64,000 nt of DNA, from contig JACRMT010000023.1 in the NCBI GenBank assembly GCA_016214855.1, positions 19,509 to 83,508 of the forward strand, given 5' to 3'. Of the stretch, positions 1 through 14,307 are shown one piece after another. The notes beneath the pieces were generated by a model, which was given only the letters and a program-made list of their open reading frames with translations, searched no databases and was not told where the DNA came from. Made by a program: the position numbers and the translations under genes. The stretch is from Nitrospirota bacterium. GTDB taxonomy: Bacteria > Nitrospirota > Thermodesulfovibrionia > Thermodesulfovibrionales > UBA6898. Every line of letters begins with the position of its first letter. Position 1 is the first letter of the stretch.

Positions 1-210
1 ATACACGGCCATCATCTCGATGGCACATCAGGCCAGTCCGAACGTCATGGGCCACAGCGATGAGCTTCTTCCCCAGTTGATCAACTTGTCCATCGATGTG
101 ATAAGAATATTCGGCGCGAGAATCTTTACGCCTTCTTCAACTTCGACAAGCGACTGCGAAGGGGTGCTGAGGGTTGTGATCAATCCCATACAAATGCCTC
201 CTTTCTCCAT
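1..210 (-). CDS. nuoB: NADH-quinone oxidoreductase subunit B (NuoB/Nqo6), 5' part only; the gene runs off the left window edge
   Basis: The minus-strand ORF starts at 210. The translation ...[20 protein letters not shown] continues in frame to position 1 as CAIEMMAVY, which is the conserved NuoB N-terminal signature. It overlaps the nuoA stop. Confidence 0.85.
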
Positions 211-551
211 GCGTAGATGTACCCGACCAGCAGGATCACCATGAAGATGACCATCTCTATAAAGGCATAGAGCCCGATCTTGTCGAACACCACTGCCCAG
301 GGATAGAGAAACACCGCTTCAACATCGAACACAACAAACAGCATGGCAATAATATAGAACTTGACGGAAAACCTCATGTGAGGCCCGCCAACAGGAGCGT
401 TCCCGGATTCATAAGGCATAAGCTTCTCCGCATAAGGCCGCCTGAGACGAAGCAGTTCACCGATGAGCAATGAACCTATGCCGAAGGCCGTTGCGACCAT
501 CAGGAAGATGAGAACAGGCAAATATTCTGAAGGCATAAAAGTTCCGGGCAT
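180..551 (-). CDS. nuoA: NADH-quinone oxidoreductase subunit A (NuoA/Nqo7)
   Basis: 123 aa small membrane protein. It carries PYESG...RFSVKFY...[15 protein letters not shown], a typical NuoA pattern, and lies directly upstream of nuoB on the same strand. Confidence 0.9.
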
Positions 552-663
552 AACGGTATAATTTTATAGGACATCCAAACTAATAAGTCAAGTAAAAAAA
601 TGAATCTCCAGCTTTAGGTTTTTTCTTGCTTTAATTGTTGTAAATGATATAAATTTTTTAGCG

Positions 664-2241
664 ATGCTCGTAAATAAATCTCTTAACTCACTGACCGGAA
701 AACTTATCCTGACCATCGGCACGCTCATGATCGCCGGAAGCATGCTCTTCTGGCTGTTCCTTTTCAAATACCAGGAGAAAGAACTCCTGCAGAGTTCCGT
801 AAAATACGGCTATTCCTTCGTTGACTATATCAGAAATACAACAAGATATGGAATGCTCTCTGCGCAGGGCCCGCTCATTCAGCAGACCGTCGAATCGGTC
901 GGTGTTGCAGAGGGCATCCAGAATGTGCGGATCTTCGACAGCAAAGGCAGGGTCGCCTATGCCTCCGACAGAAAGAATATCGACACCGTCCTTGACAAGA
1001 ACTCGCCGCTCTGCCTCAGATGCCATACCGCCTCCGGCCCGACAAAAGATACACCAAGCTGGCGTATTGCCAAAGGAGAAGTGCACCGGGTCCTGAACAT
1101 AGTCCAGCCGATATATAACGAGCCCGCCTGTTACAATGCCTCTTGCCATGTCCATCCTGCGAATCAGCGCATATTGGGCATTGTCGAAGTTGACCTTTCG
1201 CTCGAACTTCTCGATCACAGCATTAAACAGCAGGGCATTGCGATCACGGTCTATGTCCTGGCCTTTTCCATCGTGATCTCCGGCGTTCTCTGCATTATCA
1301 TCTGGAATTTTGTCTCTACTCCGGTATCGATCCTCGCACAGGGCATGAGAAAGGTTGCAGCAGGCGATCTCGACTTTAAAATAACGATCAACAGAAAAGA
1401 TGAGATCGGCGAACTCGCCAACACCTTTAATGCGATGAGCGACGAACTCAGGAAGGCAAAGAAGGAAAGCATGGAGTGGAGCAACACGCTCGAAAAGAAG
1501 GTGGAAGAGAAGACCGAGGCGATCCATCGGGCGCAGCAGCAGCTTATCCATTCGGAAAAGCTTGCATCCCTGGGAAGAATGGCAGCCGGCGTTGCGCATG
1601 AAATTAACAGTCCGCTTACCGGCATTGTGACCTTCGGACATCTCCTTCTGAAGAAGTTCCCGGAGGGCACTGAAGACCGGGAAGATATCGAGGTCATTAT
1701 CGACCAGGCAAACCGTTGCTCCAACATCATCAAAGGGCTTCTGGGGTTTGCCCGCGCAACAACTGCAGATAAGGCTCCGACAAATATCAATGACGTGCTG
1801 AACAGCACACTCAATATTGTCAAGAACAAGGCAGATTTCTTCAATATAAAACTTTCGACAAGTCTGGACCCTTCGCTTGCCATGGTCAAGGCGGACGCAC
1901 CGCAACTTCAGCAGGTCTTCCTGAATATGATCGTAAATGCGGCTGATGCATGCGAAGGAAAGGGTTCTATCACCATAACAACCTCAAATGTAAATGACAG
2001 CGGACAGGATTATGCCCAGATCGAATTCAGAGACACCGGACATGGCATTAAGGACGAAGCCCTCGAAAAGATCTTCGAGCCCTTCTTTACCACAAAACCT
2101 GTCGGCAAAGGCACAGGTCTTGGCCTTGCCGTGAGCCACGGCATCATACAGGACCATGGCGGGAAGATCACGATCAGCACAAAAATTGGTGAGGGCACCA
2201 GTTTCTTTATCTGGCTTCCGGCGCTGAAGGAGACCGCATGA
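664..2241 (+). CDS. Sensor histidine kinase: two TM helices flanking a periplasmic domain with CxxCH and Cx4CH motifs, then HAMP, HisKA and HATPase domains
   Basis: TM1 is LILTIGTLMIAGSMLFWLFLF and TM2 is ITVYVLAFSIVISGVLCIIIW. The HAMP region is (AAGDLDFKI...ELANTFNAM). The H-box is AAGVAHEINSPL, the N-box NMIVNAADA, and the G-boxes DTGHGI and GKGTGLGLAV. Confidence 0.85.
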   Translation: MLVNKSLNSLTGKLILTIGTLMIAGSMLFWLFLFKYQEKELLQSSVKYGYSFVDYIRNTTRYGMLSAQGPLIQQTVESVGVAEGIQNVRIFDSKGRVAYASDRKNIDTVLDKNSPLCLRCHTASGPTKDTPSWRIAKGEVHRVLNIVQPIYNEPACYNASCHVHPANQRILGIVEVDLSLELLDHSIKQQGIAITVYVLAFSIVISGVLCIIIWNFVSTPVSILAQGMRKVAAGDLDFKITINRKDEIGELANTFNAMSDELRKAKKESMEWSNTLEKKVEEKTEAIHRAQQQLIHSEKLASLGRMAAGVAHEINSPLTGIVTFGHLLLKKFPEGTEDREDIEVIIDQANRCSNIIKGLLGFARATTADKAPTNINDVLNSTLNIVKNKADFFNIKLSTSLDPSLAMVKADAPQLQQVFLNMIVNAADACEGKGSITITTSNVNDSGQDYAQIEFRDTGHGIKDEALEKIFEPFFTTKPVGKGTGLGLAVSHGIIQDHGGKITISTKIGEGTSFFIWLPALKETA

Positions 2242-2627
2242 GCAAGGGAAAGATTCTTGTCATAGATGATGAAGACATTGTGCGCTTGAGCTGCAGCCGT
2301 TCTCTTGTTCCCGAAGGATATGAGCTGAAAATGGCGAAGAACGGCCCTGAGGGTCTGAAGTTGCTCGAGGAAGAGACCTTTGATCTTGTGCTCACTGATC
2401 TCAAAATGCCGAACATGGACGGCATAGAGGTGCTGGGGACCATTAAGGAAAAGTGGCCGAAGACTGATGTGGTCATCGTTACCGGGTATCAGACCGTTGA
2501 AACCGCGGTAAAGGCGATCAAGATCGGCGCTTTCGACTATGTCGAAAAGCCCTTCACGCCTGATTCGCTCCTCGCAACCGTTGCAAACGTCTTTCGGACT
2601 CGAAAAGATAAGGGCCTTATTTCGTGA
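2238..2627 (+). CDS. Stand-alone response-regulator receiver (CheY-like)
   Basis: 129 aa. The motifs ILVIDDED...VLTDLKMPNMDG...VIVTGY...VEKPF give a complete phospho-acceptor constellation. The start overlaps the kinase stop (ATGA). Confidence 0.85.
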   Translation: MSKGKILVIDDEDIVRLSCSRSLVPEGYELKMAKNGPEGLKLLEEETFDLVLTDLKMPNMDGIEVLGTIKEKWPKTDVVIVTGYQTVETAVKAIKIGAFDYVEKPFTPDSLLATVANVFRTRKDKGLIS

Positions 2628-2675
2628 ACAGCAGAATAAGCGGAACAGCGCAAGCAGAGATAAAGGAGGGCAGTC

Positions 2676-3443
2676 ATGGAAAGTAAGGGTAAAATTCTGG
2701 TTCTTGACGATGATCCTGTCGTAACCCTGAGCTGCAAGAGGATCCTTGGCGCAGAGGGTTTTAATATCATCACCGTTGATAAGGGAGAAGACGCTATCAA
2801 GAAGGTATCCAATGAAGAGTTCGACCTTCTGATATCAGACGTAAGACTGCCTGACATGAACGGGATTTCGGTGCTGCGCGAAACAAAGATCGTTCAGCCC
2901 AAGCTTGACGTGGTGATCATTACCGGATACCCAACCCTTGATGAAGCAAAAGAGTCCGTCCGTTTAGGCGCCTTTGAATTTATCGAAAAACCGTTCACCC
3001 CTGACTTCATGCTGAATGTTGCACGGAAGGTATTCGATACCCGGGGATGGATACTGAGAAAGGCATTTATCGATGATTTCAGAAACGACATTGTCAATCT
3101 CCGTGACACCCAGAACCCGGTTCTGTTCTATAAGGAAGGCACTTGGGCGCGGCCGCTGAAAGACAACATATGGGAAGTCGGCTGCGATGCGCGCTACTGG
3201 CTCCTCGCCGGTCAGCTCGCATCCATAGAACTTCCTCAGAATCTGCGGACGATCATGGCAGGGGAAAGCTTTGGCAAGATTTTTTCGAGCAGCGGCCAGA
3301 CTGACGATCTGATCGCTCCCATGACAGGAAGAGTGAGAGAAGTCAACCATCATGCAAACACCGCCATGAGCGCACTGGTGCGTGACAACCTGAGCGAAGG
3401 CTGGCTTCTCTGGCTTGCCCGCATAGAACCGATCGCACTGTAA
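2676..3443 (+). CDS. Receiver domain fused to a GcvH-like (glycine cleavage H / lipoyl-domain fold) C-terminal domain that lacks the lipoyl lysine
   Basis: The N-terminal REC reads LVLDDD...LISDVRLPDMNG...IITGY...IEKPF. The C-terminus (YKEGTWARP...VGCDARYWLLAGQLASIELPQ...AGESFGKIFSSSGQTDDLIAPMTGRVREVN...SEGWLLWL) lines up with the GcvH core, but ESVKA is replaced by SSSGQ. Confidence 0.75.
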   Translation: MESKGKILVLDDDPVVTLSCKRILGAEGFNIITVDKGEDAIKKVSNEEFDLLISDVRLPDMNGISVLRETKIVQPKLDVVIITGYPTLDEAKESVRLGAFEFIEKPFTPDFMLNVARKVFDTRGWILRKAFIDDFRNDIVNLRDTQNPVLFYKEGTWARPLKDNIWEVGCDARYWLLAGQLASIELPQNLRTIMAGESFGKIFSSSGQTDDLIAPMTGRVREVNHHANTAMSALVRDNLSEGWLLWLARIEPIAL

Positions 3444-3467
3444 AAGAACTTCACTGAGGAGGATTAT

Positions 3468-4397
3468 ATGGCTGATGAACCCAGGATCCTGGTCGTTGAT
3501 GATGAGATAGTTGTCATCAAGAGCGCTGAACGGGTCCTCAAAAGCGAAGGCTATCAGATAGAGGGAGCTCTCGGAGGACGGGAAGCTATCCTGAAGATGG
3601 AGCAGGGAAATTACGATCTGGTCTTCACCGACCTGAAGATGCCGGAGGTGGATGGTATCACCCTTATTCGCTGGGTCAAAAAGTCCCGGCCGAACACAGG
3701 GATCGTCATCATCACAGGCTATCCGTCACAGGACACCATGAAGGAAGCGCTCGAACTCGGGATCATAGATTATGTGCCAAAGCCTTTTACACCTTCTGTC
3801 CTCCTTGACGTGACAAAAAGAGCCGTAGAGTGGGCTGAAGGAAGAAAACCTGCAGAGGAAAAAGGCCTTGAGGTCTTTCCCCCTGCCATGGCAGCAGAGA
3901 TAGACAGAGTAATCCGTGAATATCGCCATAAGCCGGGCTGCCTCATCCCCGTTCTCCAGAGAGCGCAGGAAATTGTGGGGTTTCTCCCGCCGGTCGTGCA
4001 GAAGAGGATAGCAAAGGGATTGAACGTGCCTCAGGCAGAGGTTCATAGCGTTGTCTCATTCTACTCGTTCTTCACCATGAAGCCCCGAGGCGATCATAAT
4101 ATCAGGGTATGTCTCGGAACAGCATGCTATGTCAAAGGGATTGAGGGCGTTGTCGGGAAGATCAGGGAAACGCTCAAGATCGATATCGGGGAGACAACAG
4201 ACGACAAGAAATTCTCTCTCGAAGGCGTCCGCTGCCTCGGCGCATGCGGCCTTGCACCCGTCATGGTCATAGATGAAGACACCTTCGGCAACATGTCTGC
4301 CAAAAAGGCGATCGAAGTGATCAATCGCTACTCACCTGTTGCAGCAGAAGCAGCTGCAGGCAATGAAGAGGAAGCGCTTGCAGGACAGGAGGAATGA
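3468..4397 (+). CDS. Receiver domain fused to a NuoE-like thioredoxin-fold [2Fe-2S] subunit (NuoE/HoxE/HydC family)
   Basis: The REC reads LVVDDE...VFTDLKMPEVDG...IITGY...VPKPF. The NuoE part reads LIPVLQRAQE...VVSFYSFF...RVCLGTACYVKG...CLGACGLAPVM, which supplies the four Cys ligands. A good RBS (GAGGAGG) precedes it. Confidence 0.85.
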   Translation: MADEPRILVVDDEIVVIKSAERVLKSEGYQIEGALGGREAILKMEQGNYDLVFTDLKMPEVDGITLIRWVKKSRPNTGIVIITGYPSQDTMKEALELGIIDYVPKPFTPSVLLDVTKRAVEWAEGRKPAEEKGLEVFPPAMAAEIDRVIREYRHKPGCLIPVLQRAQEIVGFLPPVVQKRIAKGLNVPQAEVHSVVSFYSFFTMKPRGDHNIRVCLGTACYVKGIEGVVGKIRETLKIDIGETTDDKKFSLEGVRCLGACGLAPVMVIDEDTFGNMSAKKAIEVINRYSPVAAEAAAGNEEEALAGQEE

Positions 4398-6313
4398 CCG
4401 TCATGACTAAACTGAATATAGAAGATCTTACTGCGCTCCATGAGAAGAACAAGGCAGCATTTGGACCTGACAGCGGCAAGTTCAAAACAAAGGTAACCGT
4501 GCATATGGGTACCTGCGGACTTGCGGCAGGAGCAAAGCAGGTTATGGACACGCTTGTCGAAGAGGTGAAGAACAACAGCATCACCGACATCCTGATTGCC
4601 TCATCAGGGTGCGCCGGCCTCTGCGGAAGAGAGCCAATCATGACGGTAGAGCAGCATGGAGCAGAGCCGGTCAAGTATTGCGACCTCAACAGTGAAAAGA
4701 CGCAAAAGATCGTAAAGGAGCATCTTGCCGGAGGTCAGGTGGTAACATCTATGGCCCTGCCTGCCAGGAAAGATATGCCCTTCATGAATCTGCAGGAGCT
4801 CCGTGTTCTCAGGAACACAGGCTTCATGGATCCTGAAAGCATCGATGAATATATTGCACGCGATGGGTACCTTGCAGCTGCAAAAGCCCTCACCAGGATG
4901 ACAACAGAAGATATCGTCAAAACGGTGAAGGACTCCGGCCTAAGAGGAAGGGGCGGTGCCGGCTTCCTTACCGGACTCAAGTGGGAGTTCGCTTCAAGGG
5001 TGCCTTCGGAAACAAAATACATGCTCTGTAACGGTGATGAGGGAGACCCTGGTGCCTTCATGGACAGATCAGTTATGGAGGCTGATCCTCACTCTGTCAT
5101 TGAGGGAATGATCATTGGCGCAAAAGCTATTGGAGCAAATTACGGATATATCTATGTCAGAGCTGAGTATCCGCTTGCGGTCAAGAGGCTGCAGATGGCC
5201 ATTGACAAGGCAACCGAGATGGGTCTTTTAGGCAAGAACATCCTGAATACCGGCTTTGACTTTGAGCTCAGTATCTATCTCGGAGCAGGGGCATTTGTCT
5301 GCGGCGAAGAGACTGCCCTGATGAGATCTCTTGAAGGGAAGCGCGGCATGCCAAGGCCCAGGCCGCCGTTCCCTGCAGTCAAGGGTCTCTGGGACAAGCC
5401 TTCGGTATTGAACAACGTCGAGACCCTGGCGCAGATAGCGCCGATCATTCTGAACGGCCCGGAATGGTACAGGACCGCAGGCACGGAAAAGAGCGCCGGC
5501 ACCAAGGTCTTTGCCCTCACGGGAGCAGTAAACAACGTCGGTCTCGTTGAAGTGCCGATGGGCATCCCGTTAAGACGGATCATATACGACATAGGCGGCG
5601 GAATAACGAAGGGACGGAAGTTTAAGTCTGTTCAGCTTGGCGGACCATCTGGAGGCTGCATACCGGAACATCTTCTCGATATCCCCGTAACATACGAAGA
5701 TATCATGGCTACCGGCGCCATTGTAGGGTCAGGCGGCATGGTTGTCATGGACGACAATACCTGTATGGTCGGGACTGCAAAGTTCTTTCTCGAGTTCACT
5801 GCTGACGAATCCTGCGGCAAGTGCACGCCCTGCAGAGTGGGCACAAAGATTCTCCTCGATATGCTTACAGATATAACAGAAGGCAAGGGCAGTGAGGGAG
5901 ATATAGAAACACTCGAAGATCTGAGCAGGGACATTATCACAACGTCACTCTGCGGTCTTGGACAGACGGCACCTAATCCTGTGCTTTCGACGCTGCGCTA
6001 CTTCAAGGATGAATATGAATCTCATATAAGACATAAGTGGTGCAAGGCAGGGGTATGCAGGAATCTCACTACCTTCATGATCGACGAGAAACTCTGTAAG
6101 GCCTGCGGAGCATGTCTCAGGGCGTGTCCGGCAAAGGCAATAGTCGGAGAGAAGAAGGTGCCGCACAAGATCATCCAGGAACTCTGCGTGCATTGCAGAT
6201 CCTGCTTTGATACGTGCAAGTTCAACTCGATCAGGATCCTGCCGGCCGGCTTTGAAGGCGACCCGACCGAGTTCCTCGAAAAGGCCTCAGCAGGCAATAA
6301 GGAGGTCAAGTAA
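4394..6313 (+). CDS. NuoF-like NADH-binding flavoprotein with an extra N-terminal Trx-like [2Fe-2S] domain and a C-terminal 2x[4Fe-4S] domain (HydB/HndC-type architecture)
   Basis: The FMN/NADH motifs GLRGRGGAGF and GEETALMRSLEG are present. The N3 cluster is CGKCTPCR...LCGLGQTAPNP. The N-terminal 2Fe-2S region reads MGTCGLAAG...CAGLCGREP. The C-terminal motifs are CKACGACLRACP and CVHCRSCFDTC. The start overlaps the upstream stop (ATGA). Confidence 0.9.
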   Translation: MTVMTKLNIEDLTALHEKNKAAFGPDSGKFKTKVTVHMGTCGLAAGAKQVMDTLVEEVKNNSITDILIASSGCAGLCGREPIMTVEQHGAEPVKYCDLNSEKTQKIVKEHLAGGQVVTSMALPARKDMPFMNLQELRVLRNTGFMDPESIDEYIARDGYLAAAKALTRMTTEDIVKTVKDSGLRGRGGAGFLTGLKWEFASRVPSETKYMLCNGDEGDPGAFMDRSVMEADPHSVIEGMIIGAKAIGANYGYIYVRAEYPLAVKRLQMAIDKATEMGLLGKNILNTGFDFELSIYLGAGAFVCGEETALMRSLEGKRGMPRPRPPFPAVKGLWDKPSVLNNVETLAQIAPIILNGPEWYRTAGTEKSAGTKVFALTGAVNNVGLVEVPMGIPLRRIIYDIGGGITKGRKFKSVQLGGPSGGCIPEHLLDIPVTYEDIMATGAIVGSGGMVVMDDNTCMVGTAKFFLEFTADESCGKCTPCRVGTKILLDMLTDITEGKGSEGDIETLEDLSRDIITTSLCGLGQTAPNPVLSTLRYFKDEYESHIRHKWCKAGVCRNLTTFMIDEKLCKACGACLRACPAKAIVGEKKVPHKIIQELCVHCRSCFDTCKFNSIRILPAGFEGDPTEFLEKASAGNKEVK

Positions 6314-8770
6314 ATGATCGAGCTCATCATAGACGACAAGAAAGTATCTGTTGAGGAAAATACAACCATTCTCGCGGCGGCAAAAAAGATCGGCATCAAT
6401 ATACCGAATATGTGCTATGACAAGAGACTCAGACCCTACGGCGGATGCAGGATCTGTGTTGTCGAACAGGAGGGCAATCCGAGGCTGCTCGCATCATGCT
6501 CTACACCGGCAGCAGCGGGCATGGTAATAAAGACCGATACGCCGAAGCTCAGGAAAGTACGGCAGACCGTCCTCGAACTCATGCTCGTACATCATCCTCT
6601 TGACTGCCCGATCTGCGATAAGGCAGGTGAATGCGATCTCCAGGATATGGCTTTTCAGTATGGCAAGCCTGAGGGCCGGTTCATCAGACACAGAAAGGCC
6701 ATGCCTTCTGATGTGAGGGGCCCGCTTGTTGAGCTCACGGCAAACCGGTGTATCCTCTGCGGCAAGTGCGTAAGAATATGTTCCGAGCACCAGGGACGAG
6801 GCGCTCTCGGCTTTATCGGCAGGGGATTCCCTACGGTCGTCCAGCCTGCATTCGGAGAGATCCTTGAATGCGACTACTGCGGCCAATGCATTGACATCTG
6901 CCCCACTGGCGCTCTCCTGAGCAAGCCTATGAAGTTCCAGGCACGTGCCTGGTTCCTCGAAGAAAAAGACACGATATGCCCTTTCTGCGGCTGTGGCTGC
7001 ACACTAACCATAGGAACGCGGGAAGGCAAGATCCTGAGATCTCGGGCAAAAGAGGACAATGGGAGAAGCGAGGGCAATCTCTGCGGCAGGGGAAGGTTCG
7101 GCGTTGATTACATATACAGCGAGAACCGGCTTAAGACTCCTCTCATCAGGAAAGAGGGAGAACTTGTTGCGGTAACATGGGATGAGGCCCTGAAGCATGC
7201 AGGCGACAGCCTGATCCGCATTATCACTGCCCAGGGAAGAGATGCGGTAGGTGCGATCGGCTCTCACCGGTGCTCTAATGAGGACAACTATATGCTCAAG
7301 AAGTTCATGAGCACTGTTGTCGGCTCAGGCAATATTGACTCGTCCGCAGCCTTCGGATACCGGAGAGTCCAGAAAGCCCTGAACATGGCCTTCGGCTCAA
7401 AGTCTCACACGATTGACATGAAATATCCTATAGGGAAAGATGTCATAATGGTTATCGAATCTGACATAAGTGCTACTCACCCGGTGTTTGGCCTGAACAT
7501 ACTGAGAGCAAAGCGTGAAGGCTCAAAACTGATCGTAGCAGATGCCCGGGAAACAAAACTGACCCGCCACAGCAGTTCTCATCTCAGGATGGAAAGCGGC
7601 ACTTCAGTGGCTTTCATAAACGGCCTGATAAAGGTCATCATTGACAAGAACCTTTTCGAAAGGGCAGTGGTCTCAAAAATTGAAGGCTTCGAGGCCTTTG
7701 AAAAAAGTCTTGATGCTTTTACCCCTGACAAGGTCTCAAAGATAACGCAGATCTCTGAAGCAGAGATCGTAGGAACAGCCGAATTACTTGCAAAGGCAAA
7801 AAGCCGCATGATCTCCTTCACCATCAATGCGTCTGAAAATACCAAGGGAATGGACATGGTGCTTGCAGCAGCAAACCTTATAATCCTCCTTGGCGATAAA
7901 CCCGATGCACTCCAGATACCAGCGGAATACGCAAACACTCTCGGCATGGAAAAAATGGCTTTGCACCCGGAGGCAGCGGCGAAAAATATCTTCAATATGC
8001 TTTATGAACAGGGCGCGGTCAAGGGACTATTCATCATGGGTGAAGATCCGGTATCCGCATATCCGTTCAGCTCAAAGATCCTGTCTGTGCTCAAGGCCCT
8101 GGACCTGCTGATCGTGCAGGACATTGCGCTCACCGAGACCGCAAAGCTTGCCCATGTTGTGCTTCCGGCTGCAGGCTGGTCAGAGAAGGATGGGACATTT
8201 ATAAATGCTGAAGGTATCAGCCAGAAACTCCAGAGGATCATTGAGTCGCCGGGCCAGGCCATGCCGGACTGGCAGATATTGAGAAACCTTGCTCTTGCCA
8301 TGGGCAAAGAGATAGGCACGCGAAGCGTTGAGGGGCTGTCTGAAGAGATAAAGAAAACAGTACATGATGAGAAGGATCCGGCTGACAAAAGGACCTTTCA
8401 TGCAGTGCCGTATTCTGCGGGAGAGGCCCCGTCTGCCGAATATCCTCTGGCACTGGTAGTCCGGGATGTGCTTCAGCATTCTGGCAGCATGTCGACACGA
8501 TCCAAGTCCCTCGATCTTGTCGTTTCCGAGGCTTATCTTGAACTCAATGAAGAAGATGCGACCAAACTCGGTGTGTCGGATAACAGTCATGTGAAGGTTT
8601 CCTCAAGGAGGGGCACGATCTATCTGAAAGCCAAGGTGACAGACTCCGTGCCTGCCGGCACTGTTTTTTCGTCAACACATTTTCCGCACGGCCGCGTAAA
8701 CACCCTACTCTATTATCCGGAAAATGGAACGGCCTGTTCCTGCGCCGTAAATGTAGAGTCTACTAAATAG
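6314..8770 (+). CDS. NuoG-like Fe-S subunit with a molybdopterin-oxidoreductase-fold C-terminal domain and no recognisable catalytic Cys/Sec
   Basis: The N-terminal 2Fe-2S motif is CYDKRLRPYGGCRIC..SC. The other motifs are HPLDCPICDKAGECDLQ, CILCGKCVRIC/CGQCIDICP, and the 4Fe-4S motif CPFCGCGCTL...LCGRGR. The gene starts one base after the NuoF-like stop. Confidence 0.85.
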   Translation: MIELIIDDKKVSVEENTTILAAAKKIGINIPNMCYDKRLRPYGGCRICVVEQEGNPRLLASCSTPAAAGMVIKTDTPKLRKVRQTVLELMLVHHPLDCPICDKAGECDLQDMAFQYGKPEGRFIRHRKAMPSDVRGPLVELTANRCILCGKCVRICSEHQGRGALGFIGRGFPTVVQPAFGEILECDYCGQCIDICPTGALLSKPMKFQARAWFLEEKDTICPFCGCGCTLTIGTREGKILRSRAKEDNGRSEGNLCGRGRFGVDYIYSENRLKTPLIRKEGELVAVTWDEALKHAGDSLIRIITAQGRDAVGAIGSHRCSNEDNYMLKKFMSTVVGSGNIDSSAAFGYRRVQKALNMAFGSKSHTIDMKYPIGKDVIMVIESDISATHPVFGLNILRAKREGSKLIVADARETKLTRHSSSHLRMESGTSVAFINGLIKVIIDKNLFERAVVSKIEGFEAFEKSLDAFTPDKVSKITQISEAEIVGTAELLAKAKSRMISFTINASENTKGMDMVLAAANLIILLGDKPDALQIPAEYANTLGMEKMALHPEAAAKNIFNMLYEQGAVKGLFIMGEDPVSAYPFSSKILSVLKALDLLIVQDIALTETAKLAHVVLPAAGWSEKDGTFINAEGISQKLQRIIESPGQAMPDWQILRNLALAMGKEIGTRSVEGLSEEIKKTVHDEKDPADKRTFHAVPYSAGEAPSAEYPLALVVRDVLQHSGSMSTRSKSLDLVVSEAYLELNEEDATKLGVSDNSHVKVSSRRGTIYLKAKVTDSVPAGTVFSSTHFPHGRVNTLLYYPENGTACSCAVNVESTK

Positions 8771-8796
8771 AGCGGACAGACAATCATCTGTCCGCT
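8771..8796 (+). terminator. Candidate stem-loop terminator after the NuoG-like gene
   Basis: AGCGGACAGA-caatca-TCTGTCCGCT is a perfect 10-bp stem beginning 1 nt after the stop codon. There is no clear U-tract, so termination is uncertain. Confidence 0.45.
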
Positions 8797-8934
8797 CTAT
8801 AGTGCTGCCGACATGATCAGTCTATTCTGCACATCAGACATCCCGGATCTTTTTCACGAGCGCAGACCCTGCGGGATTATAGGCATGACCTGCCGCTGTG
8901 GTAATATATAAGCATTCGCAATTACGGGGGAATT

Positions 8935-9303
8935 ATGACTGAAAAATGGTCTGATGAACTGCCAGATGACGCTTTTTTATCGCAGGCTGAAAAAACATAT
9001 ATGCATGCCCTGGCAAAAATACGCGAGGGTCTGGCAAAGGGTTTTGATTTCGTCAGCGCAAGCGCATCAGTCAATATCGATGACCCGTCCCTCAAGCAGA
9101 TTGTGCTTGATGACGTGCTGAAGGTGATCATTGCCGAAGACCATTTTATAAGGCAGATCCCTCTTGAAGAGATCAGCCGGAAATTAACTATGCCCATCGA
9201 TCGTCTTGAAAAGGCCCGCGCAGAGATGCTTGAAGACGTGGAAGAGACCACGATCAAGGCCATGGAAAAGATATCGAAAAAGGAACAGAACACTAACCAC
9301 TAA
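8935..9303 (+). CDS. Hypothetical acidic protein (122 aa)
   Basis: The ORF has an upstream GGGGGAAT RBS-like element. Its stop overlaps the start of the next gene (TAATG). No family recognised. Confidence 0.5.
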   Translation: MTEKWSDELPDDAFLSQAEKTYMHALAKIREGLAKGFDFVSASASVNIDDPSLKQIVLDDVLKVIIAEDHFIRQIPLEEISRKLTMPIDRLEKARAEMLEDVEETTIKAMEKISKKEQNTNH

Positions 9304-12936: not shown

Positions 12937-14307
12937 TTACATTAAGTCCGCGTGATATTTCTTCAGCTTTCGCTTCAGGGTGGAGAGGGATACGCCGACA
13001 GCTCGTGCTGCCCTGCTGTAATTGCCTGCATGCTCTGCAAAGGCAGAAAGAATGTGATTTTTCTCAACATCATCAAGAGTTACAGATGGGCCTGTTGCAG
13101 GTTTCTGCTCCGTCGTCCTCAACGGCTGTTGCGCCCTCTTTACCGCGACGGCAAGAAGCTCAGCCGGCTGCAGCACTGATCCCTGCTGCAGGATAACAGC
13201 CCGTTCGAGCACATTTCTCAGCTCCCTCACATTGCCGGGCCAGTCGTACTGCATCATCTTTTCGATCTGACCGTCTGCAAGTCTGAGATGTCTTCCTTTT
13301 GCAACTTTAGTTACAAGGACATCACAAAGCGCCGGGATATCATCTCTTCTTTCCCGTAATGGCGGCAGATGCATCTTTATGACACCAAGACGGTAATAGA
13401 GGTCCTCCCTGAATGTTCTGGCCCTTATGGCCTTTTCAACGTCAACGCTTGTGGCAGCAATGACCCTGACCCGTGCATGGAGCAGCGCTGTGCCCCCGAG
13501 CCTGCGGTATGTCCCGTCATCAAGAACACCCAGCAGCTTTGCCTGAAGCGCTATCGGCATCTCACCGATCTCATCAAGAAAGATCGTGCCTCCCTCTGCC
13601 ATCTCGAACATGCCTTTTTTCATGGCAACGGCGCCGGTGAAAGCTCCTTTTTCATAACCAAAGAGCTCAGCCTCGATCAGGCTTTCAGGGAGCGCTGCGC
13701 AGTTGATGCTGATGAACGGGCTATGCCTGAACTGGCCACCGTAATGGATCGAGCGCGCAGCAACGTTCTTGCCCGATCCGGTTTCGCCAGTGATCAGGAC
13801 AGGAGCATCTGCATTGGCAGCAAGGCTGATAAGCCGGTGGATATCTGCTATGCCCCTGCTCTCTCCCACAAATACATGTTCTTCCCGTTCCCTGTCTGAC
13901 CGGTAGTTCTGGAACTGCTCAACCTTCTCAAGATCACCGGTCCTGAGTGCCCGGGTTATGGCAAGTCCAAGTTCTTCAAGCTCAAAGGGTTTTGAGAGAT
14001 AGTCGAAGGCCCCTGCCCTGACCGCTTTTACGGCATTGTCAAAGCTCGGAAAGGCAGTGGTGAAGATGATCTTCGTCTGGCCGTTAAAATCCAGAATTGC
14101 CGGACAGAGAGTATGGCCTTCGCCATCAGGCAGCTGCTGGTCAAGGAGCAGGACATCAATCTGCTTTTTTGAACAGATATCAAGACACTCTTCAGCGGTG
14201 TGCGCGACAGGGGCCTCTGTGTCGTCTGCCTTTACATACTCCTGGACCGACGCACAGAAATTTCTGTCGTCATCAACGACCAGAATGCTCCTCTTTATTT
14301 TATGCAT
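12937..14307 (-). CDS. Sigma-54-dependent response regulator (NtrC family: REC + AAA+ + Fis-type HTH)
   Basis: The REC reads LVVDDD...LLLDQQLPDGEG. Walker A is GETGSGK, and GAFTGA and ELFGYEKGAFTGA are present. The C-terminal HTH reads GNYSRAARAVGVSLSTLKRKLKK. Confidence 0.9.
   Translation of the reverse strand: MHKIKRSILVVDDDRNFCASVQEYVKADDTEAPVAHTAEECLDICSKKQIDVLLLDQQLPDGEGHTLCPAILDFNGQTKIIFTTAFPSFDNAVKAVRAGAFDYLSKPFELEELGLAITRALRTGDLEKVEQFQNYRSDREREEHVFVGESRGIADIHRLISLAANADAPVLITGETGSGKNVAARSIHYGGQFRHSPFISINCAALPESLIEAELFGYEKGAFTGAVAMKKGMFEMAEGGTIFLDEIGEMPIALQAKLLGVLDDGTYRRLGGTALLHARVRVIAATSVDVEKAIRARTFREDLYYRLGVIKMHLPPLRERRDDIPALCDVLVTKVAKGRHLRLADGQIEKMMQYDWPGNVRELRNVLERAVILQQGSVLQPAELLAVAVKRAQQPLRTTEQKPATGPSVTLDDVEKNHILSAFAEHAGNYSRAARAVGVSLSTLKRKLKKYHADLM

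What the first reader, a model, noticed from the sequence alone, without database searches (positions are those of the whole stretch)
664..8770. Two-component phosphorelay wired into a stand-alone NuoEFG-type NADH-dehydrogenase module
Seen in the sequence:
- Six plus-strand genes are translationally coupled. ATGA overlaps occur at 2238/2241 and 4394/4397, and the stop at 6313 abuts the start at 6314.
- They encode a periplasmic-sensing HAMP histidine kinase, a lone receiver, a receiver fused to a GcvH-like domain, a receiver fused to NuoE, a NuoF-like subunit and a NuoG-like subunit.
- The NuoF-like subunit has an extra N-terminal [2Fe-2S] domain and a C-terminal 2x[4Fe-4S] domain.
- All three receivers keep the full phospho-acceptor set: DD, D in xxTDLKMP or SDVRLP, T in TGY, and K in KPF.
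- The operon is divergent from nuoA-nuoB, whose operon starts 112 nt away.

Established knowledge: the NuoF domain arrangement is that of HydB/HndC-type subunits of NAD(P)H-linked and flavin-based electron-bifurcating enzymes.

Inference: the NADH-oxidising module is detached from the membrane arm of complex I. It is physically fused to phosphotransfer domains, which implies post-translational (phosphorylation) control of an electron-input module, or its use as a redox-sensing output. I do not know of a characterised example.
Basis: partly seen in the sequence, partly recalled or inferred. Interest (0 to 1): 0.8.

Follow-up and report, generated by a model that had tools for sequence, protein, structure and literature searches.

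The report
Phosphorylation-controlled second input for complex I
An uncultured Nitrospirota bacterium has a six-gene operon encoding a membrane sensor kinase, three phospho-receiver proteins and a ferredoxin/NADH "bifurcating-type" electron-input module; it sits beside (and, in relatives, inside) the complex I operon, so it looks like a second, signal-switched way to feed electrons into complex I, not a detached copy of the ordinary input module.

Summary
The six genes, their domains, the ATGA overlaps and the 112-nt divergent gap to nuoA are all real. All three receivers keep every phospho-acceptor residue in 44–80 orthologs.

The "NuoEFG" proteins are not the ordinary N-module. NuoF and NuoE match the BfuB/BfuC (HydB/HydC) subunits of electron-bifurcating enzymes far better than complex I. 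The alpha subunit is NuoG-like and has lost the formate dehydrogenase active site (Cys-His is Gly-Tyr).

In relatives 90–94% identical, the divergent operon is nuoABCDEFG, with its own conventional nuoEFG.

The link to complex I is still strong and survives rearrangement. The cluster is divergent from nuo in 29 loci. It replaces nuoEFG between nuoD and nuoH in L034. It sits beside nuoEFG within one operon in L052. It faces an 11-subunit nuo operon lacking nuoEFG in L049, L050 and L055.

Best reading: a Bfu-type (NADH plus ferredoxin) alternative input module for complex I, controlled post-translationally by a periplasmic PAS-like kinase with two heme-c motifs. This matches the predicted, uncharacterised "Nuo-Bfu" class. 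The receiver fusions appear undescribed.

Side observation: nuoB has an in-frame TGA at a cluster-N2 cysteine.

The parts
1..189 (-). 5' part of nuoB (runs off the window). It carries an in-frame TGA at 28-30, at the first Cys of the tandem-Cys cluster-N2 motif.
   Evidence: Translation and comparison with L006, L086 and L034. TGA occurs in 14 of 30 orthologs and Cys codons in 16.
180..551 (-). nuoA, first gene of the divergent complex I operon.
   Evidence: Pfam Oxidored_q4 E 1e-36. NCBIfam NuoA E 8.5e-40, below its curated cutoff.
552..663 (.). 112-nt AT-rich divergent intergenic region between nuoA and the kinase gene.
   Evidence: Sequence. No above-chance sigma-70 match was called there.
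664..2241 (+). Sensor histidine kinase: TM1, periplasmic PAS/sCache-like domain, TM2, HAMP, HisKA (phospho-His H312, nt 1597-1599), HATPase_c.
   Evidence: Pfam. Hydropathy. AF2 model pLDDT 78.6. Foldseek matches to WalK/CitA/DcuS/DctB sensor domains and to GSU0935. H312 is conserved in 38/39 orthologs.
1012..1026 (+). CLRCH (C117-x2-C120-H121): candidate heme-c attachment motif in the periplasmic domain.
   Evidence: Conserved in 37-38/39 orthologs. Kept in homologs at 29-31% identity.
1129..1155 (+). CYNASCHVH (C156-x4-C161-H162-x-H164): second candidate heme-c or metal motif.
   Evidence: Conserved in 38/39 orthologs. Kept as PIYNEPxCx4CHxH in distant homologs.
2238..2627 (+). Stand-alone receiver (REC1); phospho-Asp D54 (nt 2397-2399).
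   Evidence: Pfam Response_reg E 5.4e-32. D10, D11, D54 and K104 conserved 44/44; T82 43/44.
2676..3443 (+). Receiver (D55, nt 2838-2840) fused to a GcvH-fold domain (about residues 140-255) that lacks the lipoyl-lysine.
   Evidence: Pfam. Foldseek matches to H-proteins, TM about 0.6 and rmsd 3.5 A. Gly at the lipoyl-Lys position in 65/66 orthologs; receiver residues D11, D12, D55, K105 66/66 and T83 65/66.
3468..4397 (+). Receiver (D55, nt 3630-3632) fused to a NuoE/HydC-type [2Fe-2S] subunit (BfuC; residues about 142-288).
   Evidence: Pfam. Best PDB matches are HydC of bifurcating hydrogenases, E 1.4e-41, against 1e-21 to 1e-28 for complex I NuoE. Receiver residues and the four cluster Cys are conserved 80/80.
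4394..6313 (+). BfuB/HydB-type flavoprotein: HydD/HndB-like thioredoxin-fold domain (residues 1-122), then the NuoF core (FMN, NADH, [4Fe-4S]) with the B2-site ligands, then a C-terminal 2x[4Fe-4S] domain.
   Evidence: Pfam. Full-length match to A. mobile HydB 7t2r_B, E 5.6e-222, and to other bifurcating BfuB subunits. Ligand conservation and N-terminal domain type.
6314..8770 (+). BfuA, a NuoG-like subunit: [2Fe-2S], His/Cys [4Fe-4S], 2x[4Fe-4S], pterin-domain [4Fe-4S], and a molybdopterin-like domain whose Cys-His is replaced by G348-Y349 (nt 7355-7360).
   Evidence: Pfam and NCBIfam (TIGR01973 NuoG 475 bits against a cutoff of 470.05). Alignment to FdsA 6tg9/9wxb. Gly 60/60, Tyr 56/60 and Fe-S Cys 60/60. 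Same motifs in canonical NuoG.
8770..8797 (+). Perfect 10-bp inverted repeat (GAGCGGACAG-8 nt-CTGTCCGCTC) overlapping the stop codon. No U-tract. Probable 3' end or stabiliser of the operon transcript.
   Evidence: Sequence. The consensus scan did not call it a canonical terminator.

Best explanation
The operon encodes a two-component-controlled BfuABC module of the electron-bifurcating HydABC type.

Shown by sequence:
- BfuB carries the FMN/NADH site, the B2 signature ligands and the ferredoxin-facing 2x[4Fe-4S] domain.
- BfuC carries the mobile [2Fe-2S] cluster and an N-terminal receiver.
- BfuA is a NuoG-type wire of five Fe-S clusters with no catalytic metal site.

Inferred from gene neighbourhoods:
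- The module's 'third substrate' is the quinone-reducing arm of complex I.
- It would then be an alternative N-module that feeds complex I from NADH plus reduced ferredoxin (the predicted 'Nuo-Bfu').
- In this lineage it would coexist with the ordinary NADH-only NuoEFG.

Inferred mechanism of control:
1. The kinase reads periplasmic redox state through one or two c-type hemes in a PAS-like domain.
2. It autophosphorylates on H312.
3. It transfers phosphate to D54 or D55 of the three receivers.
4. Phosphorylation of the receiver on BfuC would gate the BfuC cluster-domain movement that switches the bifurcating core, or would gate docking or oligomerisation of the module.
5. The receiver-GcvH-like protein would act as a phospho-dependent adaptor, and the lone receiver as a phosphate sink or connector.

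No transcriptional output domain is present, so control is post-translational.
For: Enzyme type:
- BfuB is a full-length match to structurally characterised bifurcating subunits: 7t2r_B 5.6e-222, 8oh5_B, 7q4v_B, 9n5u_B. Non-bifurcating NuoF and FdsB score 1e-122 or weaker.
- The B2 ligands C457, T495, H544, C550 and C555 and all C-terminal cluster Cys are conserved in 66-67/67 orthologs (Thr in 54/67).
- The BfuC domain matches HydC best.
- BfuA has five conserved Fe-S motifs. It shares the Gly at the former Mo-ligand position with canonical NuoG. It passes the NuoG NCBIfam cutoff.

Link to complex I:
- nuoA is adjacent in 32/63 loci.
- The arrangements differ: divergent from nuoABCDEFG (23 loci), divergent from nuoABCD-HIJK lacking nuoEFG (L049, L050, L055), replacing nuoEFG between nuoD and nuoH (L034), placed between nuoD and nuoE (L052), and upstream of nuoA (L046).
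- 31 of the 32 nuo-adjacent loci carry the kinase.
- Schut et al. 2022 independently predicted a Nuo-Bfu class in Nitrospirae.

Signalling:
- The phospho-His and all receiver residues are conserved.
- The sensor has a PAS/sCache fold and two conserved Cys-His motifs. A heme-c PAS sensor precedent (GSU0935, 3b42) appears among the structural matches.
- None of the receiver proteins has a DNA-binding domain.
- Receiver-BfuC fusions recur in other Bfu clusters that have their own kinases (L087, L088).
Against: - There is no experimental evidence of any kind. Nuo-Bfu itself is only a prediction.
- About half of the loci (31/63) have no nuo gene within 10 kb, and many of these lack the kinase. The module can therefore exist unlinked.
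- By sequence, BfuA is somewhat closer to solved FdsA (E 1e-114) than to solved NuoG (1e-81).
- With a canonical NuoEFG present, two N-modules would compete for one docking site, and nothing shows that they do.
- The canonical four-Cys N-terminal [2Fe-2S] site of BfuB is altered in the window's lineage. Schut et al. describe that site as conserved in all Bfu enzymes.
- Heme attachment is unverified, and the Cys/His motifs could bind a metal instead.
- The AF2 model of the receiver-GcvH protein gives no defined inter-domain geometry: pTM 0.48, linker pLDDT below 50.
- The presence of nuoEFG in the window's own genome is inferred from relatives.
Confidence: 0.5

Rival explanations
1. It is a soluble, self-contained Bfu-type oxidoreductase whose third substrate or partner is encoded elsewhere or is unknown. 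Adjacency to nuo would reflect only co-regulation of energy-metabolism genes. The receivers would tune a cytoplasmic NADH/ferredoxin balancing enzyme.
For: - 31/63 loci have no nuo within 10 kb.
- In L080 the flanks are unrelated: HATPase-only protein, lone receiver, glycosyltransferase, DsrE, Suf.
- The core REC-GcvH / REC-BfuC / BfuB / BfuA is conserved regardless of nuo linkage.
- Cultured Thermodesulfovibrio species are described as having 11-subunit Nuo complexes fed by ferredoxin, without an N-module (PMC5165239).
Against: - BfuA has no catalytic site of its own (Gly-Tyr for Cys-His), and no catalytic subunit lies in or next to the operon. A BfuABC without a third substrate has no thermodynamic rationale.
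- Five independent arrangements tie the cluster to nuo, including replacement of nuoEFG in L034.
Confidence: 0.25
2. The Bfu-like proteins form a cytoplasmic redox sensor or signalling hub rather than a flux-carrying enzyme. They would read the NADH/ferredoxin state and modulate the phosphorelay through their fused receivers, as sensory hydrogenases do.
For: - There are three receivers with no classical output.
- A GcvH-like domain stripped of its lipoyl-lysine looks like a protein-interaction module.
- Bfu clusters elsewhere are accompanied by sensory hydrogenase-kinase fusions and HisK-like ATPases.
Against: - Every cofactor ligand of a working BfuABC electron path is invariant over 60-80 orthologs down to about 50% identity. 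That includes the FMN/NADH core, the ferredoxin-side clusters and five clusters in BfuA, and it fits a catalytic electron wire.
- Phosphate flows from kinase to receiver, so the receivers are inputs to the Bfu proteins rather than outputs from them.
Confidence: 0.1
3. It is an NAD(+)/ferredoxin-dependent formate dehydrogenase of the FdsABG or Fdh-Bfu type.
For: - The best solved-structure matches of the alpha subunit are FdsA from Rhodobacter-type enzymes, E 1e-112 to 1e-114.
- NCBIfam Fdh-alpha scores 449.8 bits.
- Molybdopterin and Molydop_binding domains are present.
Against: - The Mo-ligand Cys/Sec and the adjacent His align to Gly (60/60) and Tyr (56/60). The Arg-bearing loop is absent from the alignment.
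- The Fdh-alpha score is far below its cutoff of 666.25, while the NuoG model passes its cutoff.
- Canonical NuoG has the same Gly.
Confidence: 0.03

Closest known systems
'Nuo-Bfu', the predicted 14-subunit complex I with BfuABC as input module (Schut et al. 2022, Front Microbiol, PMC9304861; BfuB clades 38 and 39, the latter in Planctomycetes and Nitrospirae)
   Same: - BfuB/BfuC core with the bifurcation-type clusters.
- NuoG-like BfuA with five clusters and no catalytic site.
- Genomic linkage to nuo genes.
- In relative L034 the cluster sits exactly between nuoD and nuoH, as in that class.
   Different: - In the window the cluster is a separate divergent operon. The nuo operon of close relatives keeps canonical nuoEFG, so Bfu adds to the ordinary N-module instead of replacing it.
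- The operon includes a sensor kinase and three receivers, two of them fused to subunits or partners. The paper does not mention these (0 hits for 'receiver' or 'response regulator').
- The class itself has never been characterised.
Electron-bifurcating HydABC / NiFe-HydABCSL / NfnABC / StnABC enzymes with solved structures (7t2r, 7q4v, 8a6t, 7p5h, 9n5u, 8oh5)
   Same: - BfuB aligns end to end (E 1e-181 to 1e-222), including the B2 ligands and the C-terminal ferredoxin domain.
- BfuC matches HydC best.
- The N-terminal half of BfuA matches HydA.
- A HydD/HndB-like element is present.
   Different: - There is no hydrogenase, GltD or other catalytic domain or subunit.
- BfuC carries an N-terminal receiver that is absent from every solved homolog.
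- The standard N-terminal [2Fe-2S] domain of BfuB is replaced by a HydD-like domain with His + 3 Cys in this lineage.
Canonical complex I N-module NuoEFG
   Same: - Same three-subunit logic.
- BfuA passes the NuoG model cutoff. It shares all Fe-S motifs and the degenerate pterin site with the neighbouring canonical NuoG.
   Different: - These are deep paralogs: 34%, 45% and 33% identity to the canonical NuoE, NuoF and NuoG of L006.
- The NuoF and NuoE NCBIfam scores fall below their cutoffs.
- There are extra N- and C-terminal cluster domains.
- Canonical NuoF (about 420 aa) lacks these domains and two of the B2 ligands.
NAD-dependent formate dehydrogenase FdsABG (Rhodobacter capsulatus, 6tg9)
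   Same: The alpha subunit has the same overall domain order, and FdsA is its best solved-sequence match.
   Different: The catalytic Cys-His is Gly-Tyr and the Arg loop is missing. The beta subunit here is of the bifurcating type, whereas FdsB is not.
Regulatory genes in hydrogenase/Bfu clusters: sensory [FeFe] hydrogenases (HydS, group C) fused to PAS or kinase domains, and HisK-like ATPase / DRTGG / PHP accessory genes
   Same: Signalling components are embedded in Bfu gene clusters. L034 carries DRTGG/HATPase/PHP genes next to BfuA. L088 has a sensory-hydrogenase-HisKA-HATPase fusion upstream of REC-BfuC. Kinase-fused group C3 hydrogenases next to BfuABC are reported in PMC11406978.
   Different: - The sensor here is a periplasmic PAS-like domain with heme-c motifs, not a cytoplasmic H-cluster domain.
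- The phospho-acceptor is fused directly to the enzyme subunit.
Periplasmic heme-c PAS sensor domains of Geobacter GSU0935 and GSU0582 (3b42)
   Same: Extracytoplasmic PAS-like fold between two TM helices, with a CXXCH motif. 3b42 appears among the Foldseek matches.
   Different: - No detectable sequence similarity.
- There are two motifs here (CXXCH and CX4CH-x-H).
- The output is a HAMP histidine kinase, not a chemoreceptor.
- Heme binding is untested.

Membership tests
Bfu family (BfuABC; Schut et al. 2022) | BfuB has the FMN/NADH-binding NuoF core with the [4Fe-4S] cluster B1 | tested here: met
   Pfam Complex1_51K E 6.8e-46 and NADH_4Fe-4S E 3.3e-34. C474, C477, C480 and C520 are conserved 67/67.
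Bfu family (BfuABC; Schut et al. 2022) | B2 site: Cys, Cys/Thr, His, Cys, Cys (A. mobile C438, C476, H525, C531, C536), with the His as the signature of bifurcating members | tested here: met
   C457, T495, H544, C550 and C555 align to these residues. They are conserved 67/67, with Thr in 54/67. Caveat: the neighbouring canonical NuoF also keeps the His and two of the Cys, so the His alone does not discriminate here.
Bfu family (BfuABC; Schut et al. 2022) | C-terminal 2x[4Fe-4S] ferredoxin-like domain in BfuB (B3, B4) | tested here: met
   Fer4 family hits at residues 562-613. Eight Cys are conserved 66-67/67.
Bfu family (BfuABC; Schut et al. 2022) | N-terminal thioredoxin-like [2Fe-2S] domain in BfuB (B5) with four Cys | tested here: inconclusive
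   The window has H37-x3-C41...C73-x3-C77, and its Pfam score of 18.3 is below the 24.8 cutoff. This is a HydD/HndB-type domain, seen in 10/67 orthologs. The other 57 have C-x4-C...C-x3-C and a separate HydD-like ORF. Whether the His/3-Cys site binds a cluster cannot be told from sequence.
Bfu family (BfuABC; Schut et al. 2022) | BfuC (NuoE/HydC-like) with [2Fe-2S] cluster C1 | tested here: met
   Pfam 2Fe-2S_thioredx E 3.5e-48. C215, C220, C256 and C260 are conserved 80/80. Best PDB matches are HydC.
Bfu family (BfuABC; Schut et al. 2022) | Couples NAD(H), ferredoxin and a third substrate (electron bifurcation or confurcation) | not testable with these tools
   Requires enzymology.
Nuo-Bfu class (predicted; Schut et al. 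2022) | bfuABC genes lie in the middle of the nuo cluster and replace nuoEFG | tested here: not met
   In the window the cluster is a divergent operon 112 nt from nuoA. Relatives at 90-94% identity have nuoEFG in the nuo operon. The feature is met in relative L034. It is partly met in L052, where both sets are present.
Nuo-Bfu class (predicted; Schut et al. 2022) | BfuA of the five-cluster (A1-A5) type without a catalytic domain of its own | tested here: met
   Five Fe-S motifs are conserved 60/60, and the Cys-His of the pterin site is Gly-Tyr.
Nuo-Bfu class (predicted; Schut et al. 2022) | Physical attachment to NuoB/C/D/I and menaquinone as third substrate | not testable with these tools
   Only gene neighbourhood is available.
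Canonical complex I N-module (NuoE, NuoF, NuoG) | Each subunit reaches the curated NCBIfam family cutoff | tested here: not met
   NuoF TIGR01959 scores 505.6 against 558.65. nuoE_fam TIGR01958 scores 122.6 against 142.4. Only NuoG TIGR01973 passes, at 475 against 470.05.
Canonical complex I N-module (NuoE, NuoF, NuoG) | Encoded between nuoD and nuoH of the nuo operon, as the only such set | tested here: not met
   It is a separate operon on the opposite strand. A distinct canonical set is present in close relatives.
NAD-dependent formate dehydrogenase alpha subunit (FdsA/FdhA) | Mo/W-ligating Cys or Sec followed by His, and the catalytic Arg | tested here: not met
   FdsA ...ARVCHS... aligns to ...AAFGYR..., and the Arg-bearing loop is not aligned. 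Gly is found in 60/60 and Tyr in 56/60 orthologs. TIGR01591 scores 449.8 against a cutoff of 666.25.
Two-component phosphotransfer system | Kinase with H-box His and HATPase domain; receivers with the acidic pair, phospho-Asp, Thr/Ser and Lys | tested here: met
   Pfam. H312 is conserved 38/39. In all three receiver types the acidic pair, phospho-Asp and Lys are invariant (44/44, 66/66, 80/80), and the Thr is conserved 43/44, 65/66 and 80/80.
Two-component phosphotransfer system | Phosphotransfer from this kinase to these receivers | not testable with these tools
   Inferred only from operon membership and co-occurrence. The kinase is present in 39/65 loci and the lone receiver in 41/65.
Glycine cleavage system H protein | H-protein fold | tested here: met
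   Pfam GCV_H 32.4 bits against 22.2. Foldseek matches to 1onl, 2ka7, 1htp and 3a7a, with TM 0.57-0.64 and rmsd about 3.5 A. The C-terminal domain has pLDDT about 70-94.
Glycine cleavage system H protein | Lipoyl-lysine in the hairpin | tested here: not met
   The position is Gly in 65/66 orthologs. The register was set by eye against the E. coli ESVKAASD motif, which rests on my own knowledge.
Heme-c periplasmic PAS sensors (GSU0935/GSU0582 type) | Extracytoplasmic PAS-like fold carrying a CXXCH motif | tested here: met
   AF2 model pLDDT 78.6. Foldseek matches to WalK, CitA, DcuS and DctB, and to 3b42. The motifs are conserved.
Heme-c periplasmic PAS sensors (GSU0935/GSU0582 type) | Covalently bound heme | not testable with these tools
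   There is no sequence similarity to solved examples. Testing needs expression and heme staining.

The most novel reading that the evidence does not exclude
Some anaerobic Nitrospirota would run complex I with two interchangeable electron-input modules. One is the ordinary NADH-only NuoEFG. The other is a confurcating NADH + ferredoxin BfuABC. The choice, or the activity of the second, would be set post-translationally. A periplasmic heme-based redox-sensing kinase would phosphorylate a receiver domain built into the BfuC subunit and a receiver-GcvH-like adaptor. This would be the first case of two-component phosphorylation acting directly on a respiratory or bifurcating redox enzyme, and the first regulated N-module exchange in complex I.
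Probability: 0.2. Interest if true: 0.85.

Novelty: new variant of a known kind. Interest (0 to 1): 0.62.

Why it matters
Electron-bifurcating Bfu enzymes and complex I are central to anaerobic energy conservation. Their short-term regulation is essentially unknown.

A receiver domain is fused to the very subunit (BfuC) whose cluster-domain movement is proposed to switch the bifurcating core. That gives a concrete, testable handle on regulation by phosphorylation.

The varied arrangements are the best genomic evidence so far that the predicted Nuo-Bfu is real. The Bfu cluster replaces the canonical nuoEFG, joins it, or faces it. They also suggest that complex I input modules can be alternatives within one organism.

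The family is abundant in groundwater, sediment and subsurface Thermodesulfovibrionia (more than 570 genome stretches). Its role therefore affects how energy budgets of these sulfur-cycling bacteria are modelled. Published reconstructions state that cultured Thermodesulfovibrio lack an NADH module.

Tried and rejected
**1. Extending the window leftward.**
- Exact-protein look-ups of REC-NuoE and nuoA returned only short Logan contigs. The best, L086, ends inside nuoD.
- An exact-match scan of metagenome contigs with the first 50 nt found nothing.
- nuoEFG in the window's own genome therefore stays an inference from relatives at 90-94% identity.

**2. Formate dehydrogenase reading.** Rejected on active-site residues.

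**3. Pseudo-receiver reading.** Rejected, because all catalytic residues are invariant.

**4. Rosetta-stone test.** I asked whether the 578-aa representative P0121 fuses REC-GcvH to REC-NuoE. It does not. It is a tandem (REC-truncated NuoE)+(REC-NuoE).

**5. Kinase sensor.**
- Pfam gave only sub-threshold Cache hits.
- The PDB sequence search gave nothing.
- Only the predicted fold was informative.

**6. REC-GcvH model.** The AF2 model is too uncertain in the receiver and linker (pTM 0.48) to say how the domains interact.

**7. Promoter and terminator scan.** It found nothing above chance in the intergenic region. It did not call the hairpin after the alpha-subunit gene a terminator.

**8. Literature.** Searches for a receiver fused to NuoE/HydC, and for Nuo-Bfu experiments, found no description. 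The library is limited to open-access papers, so absence is not proof.

**9. SECIS test for the nuoB TGA.** Hairpins exist, but they are equally present in Cys-encoding orthologs. There is no tRNA-Sec and no other in-frame-TGA gene in the window.

**10. Taxonomic reach.** The named members of all full-length REC-NuoE clusters are Nitrospirota. The two divergent contigs L087 and L088 have no taxonomic label.

Full report

Six + strand ORFs occupy 664-8770.
- The ATGA overlaps at 2238-2241 and 4394-4397 and the TAA|ATG abutment at 6311-6316 are as stated.
- The two remaining junctions are 48- and 24-nt gaps with strong Shine-Dalgarno sequences.
- The gap to the divergent nuoA (180-551, minus strand) is 112 nt.

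Pfam confirms every domain call:
- HAMP-HisKA-HATPase kinase.
- A lone receiver.
- Receiver + GCV_H.
- Receiver + NuoE-type [2Fe-2S].
- A NuoF core with a C-terminal 2x[4Fe-4S] domain.
- A NuoG/FdhA-like 818-aa protein.

A perfect 10-bp inverted repeat overlaps the last stop codon (8770-8797). The genes downstream are unrelated: an L,D-transpeptidase, an M15 peptidase, a CinA-like protein and a separate sigma-54 two-component pair.

**Organism and distribution**

The REC-NuoE protein is 100% identical to one from a 'Nitrospirae bacterium' MAG. Its 120 best relatives (77-100% identity) all combine PF00072 and PF01257. Where named, they come from Nitrospirota/Thermodesulfovibrionales.

A scan of one genome per species found more than 570 matching stretches. 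The 80 best are all Nitrospirota-type MAGs, including Candidatus Sulfobium and Thermodesulfovibrio, down to 52% identity.

**What the enzyme part is**

- **NuoF-like subunit.** It is a full-length match to the BfuB/HydB subunits of structurally characterised bifurcating enzymes: A. mobile NiFe-HydB 7t2r_B at E 5.6e-222, then StnB, A. woodii HydB and NfnB. Non-bifurcating FdsB and NuoF score 1e-122 or weaker.
- **B2 ligands.** Schut et al. 2022 (PMC9304861) treat these as the signature of bifurcating members. They are present (C457, T495, H544, C550, C555) and invariant. The eight Cys of the ferredoxin-side domain are invariant too.
- **NuoE domain.** It matches HydC best: 1.4e-41 against 1e-21 to 1e-28 for complex I NuoE. 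No solved homolog carries a receiver.
- **Alpha subunit.** Its best solved matches are FdsA formate dehydrogenases. However, the Mo-ligand Cys and the adjacent His align to Gly-Tyr, in 60/60 and 56/60 orthologs, while all five Fe-S motifs are invariant.
  - The canonical NuoG next door has the same motifs and the same Gly.
  - The protein passes the NCBIfam NuoG cutoff but not the Fdh-alpha cutoff.
  - It is therefore a NuoG-type electron wire, not a formate dehydrogenase.
The N-terminal thioredoxin-like domain of the flavoprotein has His + 3 Cys.
  - In 57/67 orthologs the flavoprotein has the standard four-Cys domain, and a separate HydD/HndB-like ORF precedes it.
  - In the window's lineage that HydD-like domain is fused on and replaces the standard domain.

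The window ends inside nuoB, so I used relatives.
- In L006 (94% identical REC-NuoE, same synteny) the divergent operon is nuoA, B, C, D, then a 154-aa NuoE, a 421-aa NuoF and a NuoG of at least 854 aa.
- L005 and L007 (93% and 90%) show the same.
- Of 25 divergent loci with room beyond nuoD, 23 have canonical nuoE.
- The two sets are deep paralogs: 34%, 45% and 33% identity.
- The canonical NuoF lacks the extra domains.

The module is therefore not complex I's own N-module moved elsewhere. It is a second module of a different type. A contig from the same sample series confirms only nuoA-D. My attempts to extend further failed.

**The link to complex I is nevertheless strong**

Counts across the 80 loci:

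| Feature | Count |
|---|---|
| BfuB follows REC-NuoE | 68/69 |
| BfuA follows | 59/62 |
| REC-GcvH precedes | 65/77 |
| Kinase present | 39/65 |
| nuoA adjacent | 32/63 |

The arrangement relative to nuo differs between lineages:
- **Divergent from nuoABCDEFG:** the window type.
- **Divergent from nuoABCD-nuoHIJK with no nuoEFG:** L049, L050, L055.
- **Replacing nuoEFG:** in L034 one strand carries nuoABCD - kinase - REC - REC-NuoE - HydD - BfuB - BfuA - DRTGG/HATPase/PHP accessory genes - nuoHIJK.
- **Both sets in one operon:** in L052 the cluster lies between nuoD and nuoE, and nuoH follows nuoG.
- **Directly upstream of nuoA:** L046.

Linkage that survives this much rearrangement argues for function with complex I, and L034 shows occupation of the nuoEFG slot. 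Schut et al. predicted exactly such a 'Nuo-Bfu' with menaquinone as third substrate, including a Nitrospirae clade. That paper does not mention receivers. It is also the only paper in the library that uses the term.

Against this, about half of the loci are unlinked to nuo. In one of them, L080, the flanks offer no alternative catalytic partner. Cultured Thermodesulfovibrio are described as having only 11-subunit Nuo complexes without an NADH module (PMC5165239). A Thermodesulfovibrio MAG, L067, nevertheless carries the Bfu core.

**The signalling part**

- **Receivers.** All three receiver types keep the acidic pair, the phospho-Asp and the Lys in every ortholog (44, 66 and 80 sequences). The Thr is replaced in one stand-alone receiver and falls in an alignment gap in one REC-GcvH sequence. 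The kinase phospho-His is conserved 38/39. They are not pseudo-receivers, and none has a DNA-binding output.
- **Kinase sensor.** The periplasmic region has no Pfam family above threshold. It folds as a PAS/sCache domain (pLDDT 78.6).
  - Its closest structural matches are the WalK, CitA, DcuS and DctB sensors.
  - The matches also include the heme-c sensor of Geobacter GSU0935.
- **Heme motifs.** The sensor carries CXXCH and CX4CH-x-H motifs. They are conserved in 37-38/39 orthologs and in homologs at about 30% identity. The motif loops are the low-confidence parts of the model, as expected if a cofactor is missing. Heme binding, and hence redox sensing, is an inference.
- **GcvH-like domain.** Its C-terminal domain has a true H-protein fold, but Gly replaces the lipoyl-lysine in 65/66 orthologs. 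It cannot act as a lipoyl carrier, so I read it as an interaction module.

**The fusion is a wider theme**

The representative-library search found about a dozen 50%-identity clusters of full-length REC-NuoE proteins. Their named members are all Nitrospirota.

Two divergent, unlabelled contigs show the fusion in other Bfu clusters:
- **L087:** Cache-HAMP kinase, sigma-54 regulator, REC-REC, REC-NuoE, BfuB and a HydA-like protein, with a sensory-hydrogenase-like gene nearby.
- **L088:** a sensory-hydrogenase domain fused to HisKA-HATPase, a sigma-54 regulator, REC-NuoE, BfuB, and a receiver fused to a BfuA-like N-terminal protein.

Kinase-fused sensory hydrogenases next to BfuABC have been noted in Hydrogenedentota. 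That paper does not mention receivers on the enzyme subunits.

**Mechanism**

Shown: a complete, conserved BfuABC electron path lacking a catalytic third site; a complete, conserved phosphotransfer set; no transcriptional output; repeated genomic coupling to nuo.

Inferred:
1. The module feeds the complex I Q-module from NADH plus reduced ferredoxin.
2. The kinase reports periplasmic redox state.
3. Phosphorylation of the receiver on BfuC gates the core or controls docking or oligomerisation. BfuC is the subunit whose cluster domain is proposed to move between FMN and the B2 site.
4. REC-GcvH acts as an adaptor and the lone receiver as a sink.

From my own knowledge, some HydABC structural papers interpret the B2 site as a Zn site and not as a [2Fe-2S] cluster. 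The conserved ligands are a family signature under either interpretation.

**Verdict**

This is a new variant of a known kind. It is a Bfu-family module of the predicted Nuo-Bfu type. Here it is an accessory to a complete nuo operon and not a replacement. It also has undescribed receiver fusions and a dedicated heme-motif kinase. Interest is moderate to high for specialists in bioenergetics and signalling, but everything beyond anatomy is inference.

**Side observation**

nuoB at the window's left edge has an in-frame TGA at the first Cys of the tandem-Cys cluster-N2 motif.
- The same TGA is present in 14 of 30 orthologs from independent assemblies. The rest have Cys codons.
- This is the classic selenoprotein pattern.
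- The SECIS test was inconclusive, and I found no prior report.

Noticed in passing
window 28-30 (minus strand), within nuoB (window 1-189, minus); also L006 6561, L086 1629 and 11 other loci: nuoB has an in-frame TGA at exactly the first Cys of the conserved tandem-Cys motif that ligates Fe-S cluster N2 (TFGLA*CAIEMM here, TFGLACCGIEMM in L034). Of 30 orthologs, 14 have TGA and 16 have TGC or TGT, and the two forms are interleaved among close relatives. The frame continues intact, and TGA is a normal stop elsewhere in the operon. This makes a selenocysteine ligand of N2 in complex I a candidate. The SECIS hairpin test was inconclusive, because the same hairpins occur in the Cys forms. There is no tRNA-Sec in the window, and I found no literature report. 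Gene callers split the gene into 60 + 118 aa.
   Followed up: partly
window 1012-1026 and 1129-1155 (+), kinase periplasmic domain: CLRCH and CYNASCHVH are conserved in 37-38/39 orthologs and in homologs at about 30% identity. They look like one CXXCH and one CX4CH heme-c attachment motif inside a PAS/sCache-like fold.
   Followed up: yes
window 4394-4759 (+); compare L052 10728-11111 and L080 10868-11251: In most relatives a separate HydD/HndB-like ORF of about 125 aa lies between REC-NuoE and BfuB, and BfuB has a standard four-Cys N-terminal [2Fe-2S] domain. In the window and 9 other loci the HydD-like domain (His + 3 Cys) is fused to BfuB and the standard domain is gone. This is a lineage-specific gene fusion with domain replacement.
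   Followed up: yes
L088 6538-13905 and L087 4983-20664: REC-NuoE fusions also occur in other, unlabelled Bfu clusters. L088 has a sensory-hydrogenase domain fused to HisKA-HATPase, a sigma-54 regulator, REC-NuoE, BfuB and a receiver fused to a BfuA-like N-terminal Fe-S protein. L087 has a Cache-HAMP kinase, a sigma-54 regulator, a REC-REC protein, REC-NuoE, BfuB and a HydA-like protein, with a HydS-like gene nearby.
   Followed up: partly
L050 2572-3066 (minus), between nuoD and nuoH: In the 11-subunit-type nuo operon that faces the Bfu cluster, a stand-alone cyclic-nucleotide-binding domain protein (Pfam cNMP_binding, E 1.3e-19) occupies the slot where nuoEFG would lie. This is another regulatory element embedded in a nuo operon.
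   Followed up: partly
L049, L050, L053 (REC-NuoE match about 1.37 kb long); protein P0121: A 578-aa protein consists of a tandem duplication. The first half is a receiver plus a NuoE-like part that aligns only up to residue 231 of the 309-aa window protein. The second half is a complete receiver-NuoE. These loci lack REC-GcvH.
   Followed up: partly
L005-L063, canonical nuoF (for example L006 2565-3830, minus): The roughly 420-aa canonical NuoF of the neighbouring operon keeps the 'bifurcation signature' His (18/19) and two of the B2-site Cys, and it ends four residues after the second. It looks like a truncated relative of a Bfu-type subunit, and the His alone does not separate the two types here.
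   Followed up: partly
L034 15692-18103 (+): Between BfuA and nuoH lie DRTGG, HATPase_c, DRTGG, PHP and HATPase_c genes. This is the accessory set often seen in HydABC hydrogenase clusters, here embedded in a nuo operon.
   Followed up: no
L044 (DRDE01000082.1): Two consecutive BfuB-BfuA pairs follow a single REC-NuoE, at 62%/57% and 69%/61% identity to the window proteins.
   Followed up: no
window 12937-15406 (minus): A second, conventional two-component pair lies 4 kb downstream on the opposite strand: a receiver-sigma54-activator-HTH_8 regulator (456 aa) and a HisKA-HATPase kinase (368 aa). It could be considered as a transcriptional regulator of the region, but I did not test any link.
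   Followed up: no
window 8935-9303 (+): A 122-aa ORF directly after the operon has no Pfam or NCBIfam family. Among the 80 loci it is conserved only in L009 (70% identity). An antisense ORF of the same size overlaps it.
   Followed up: no
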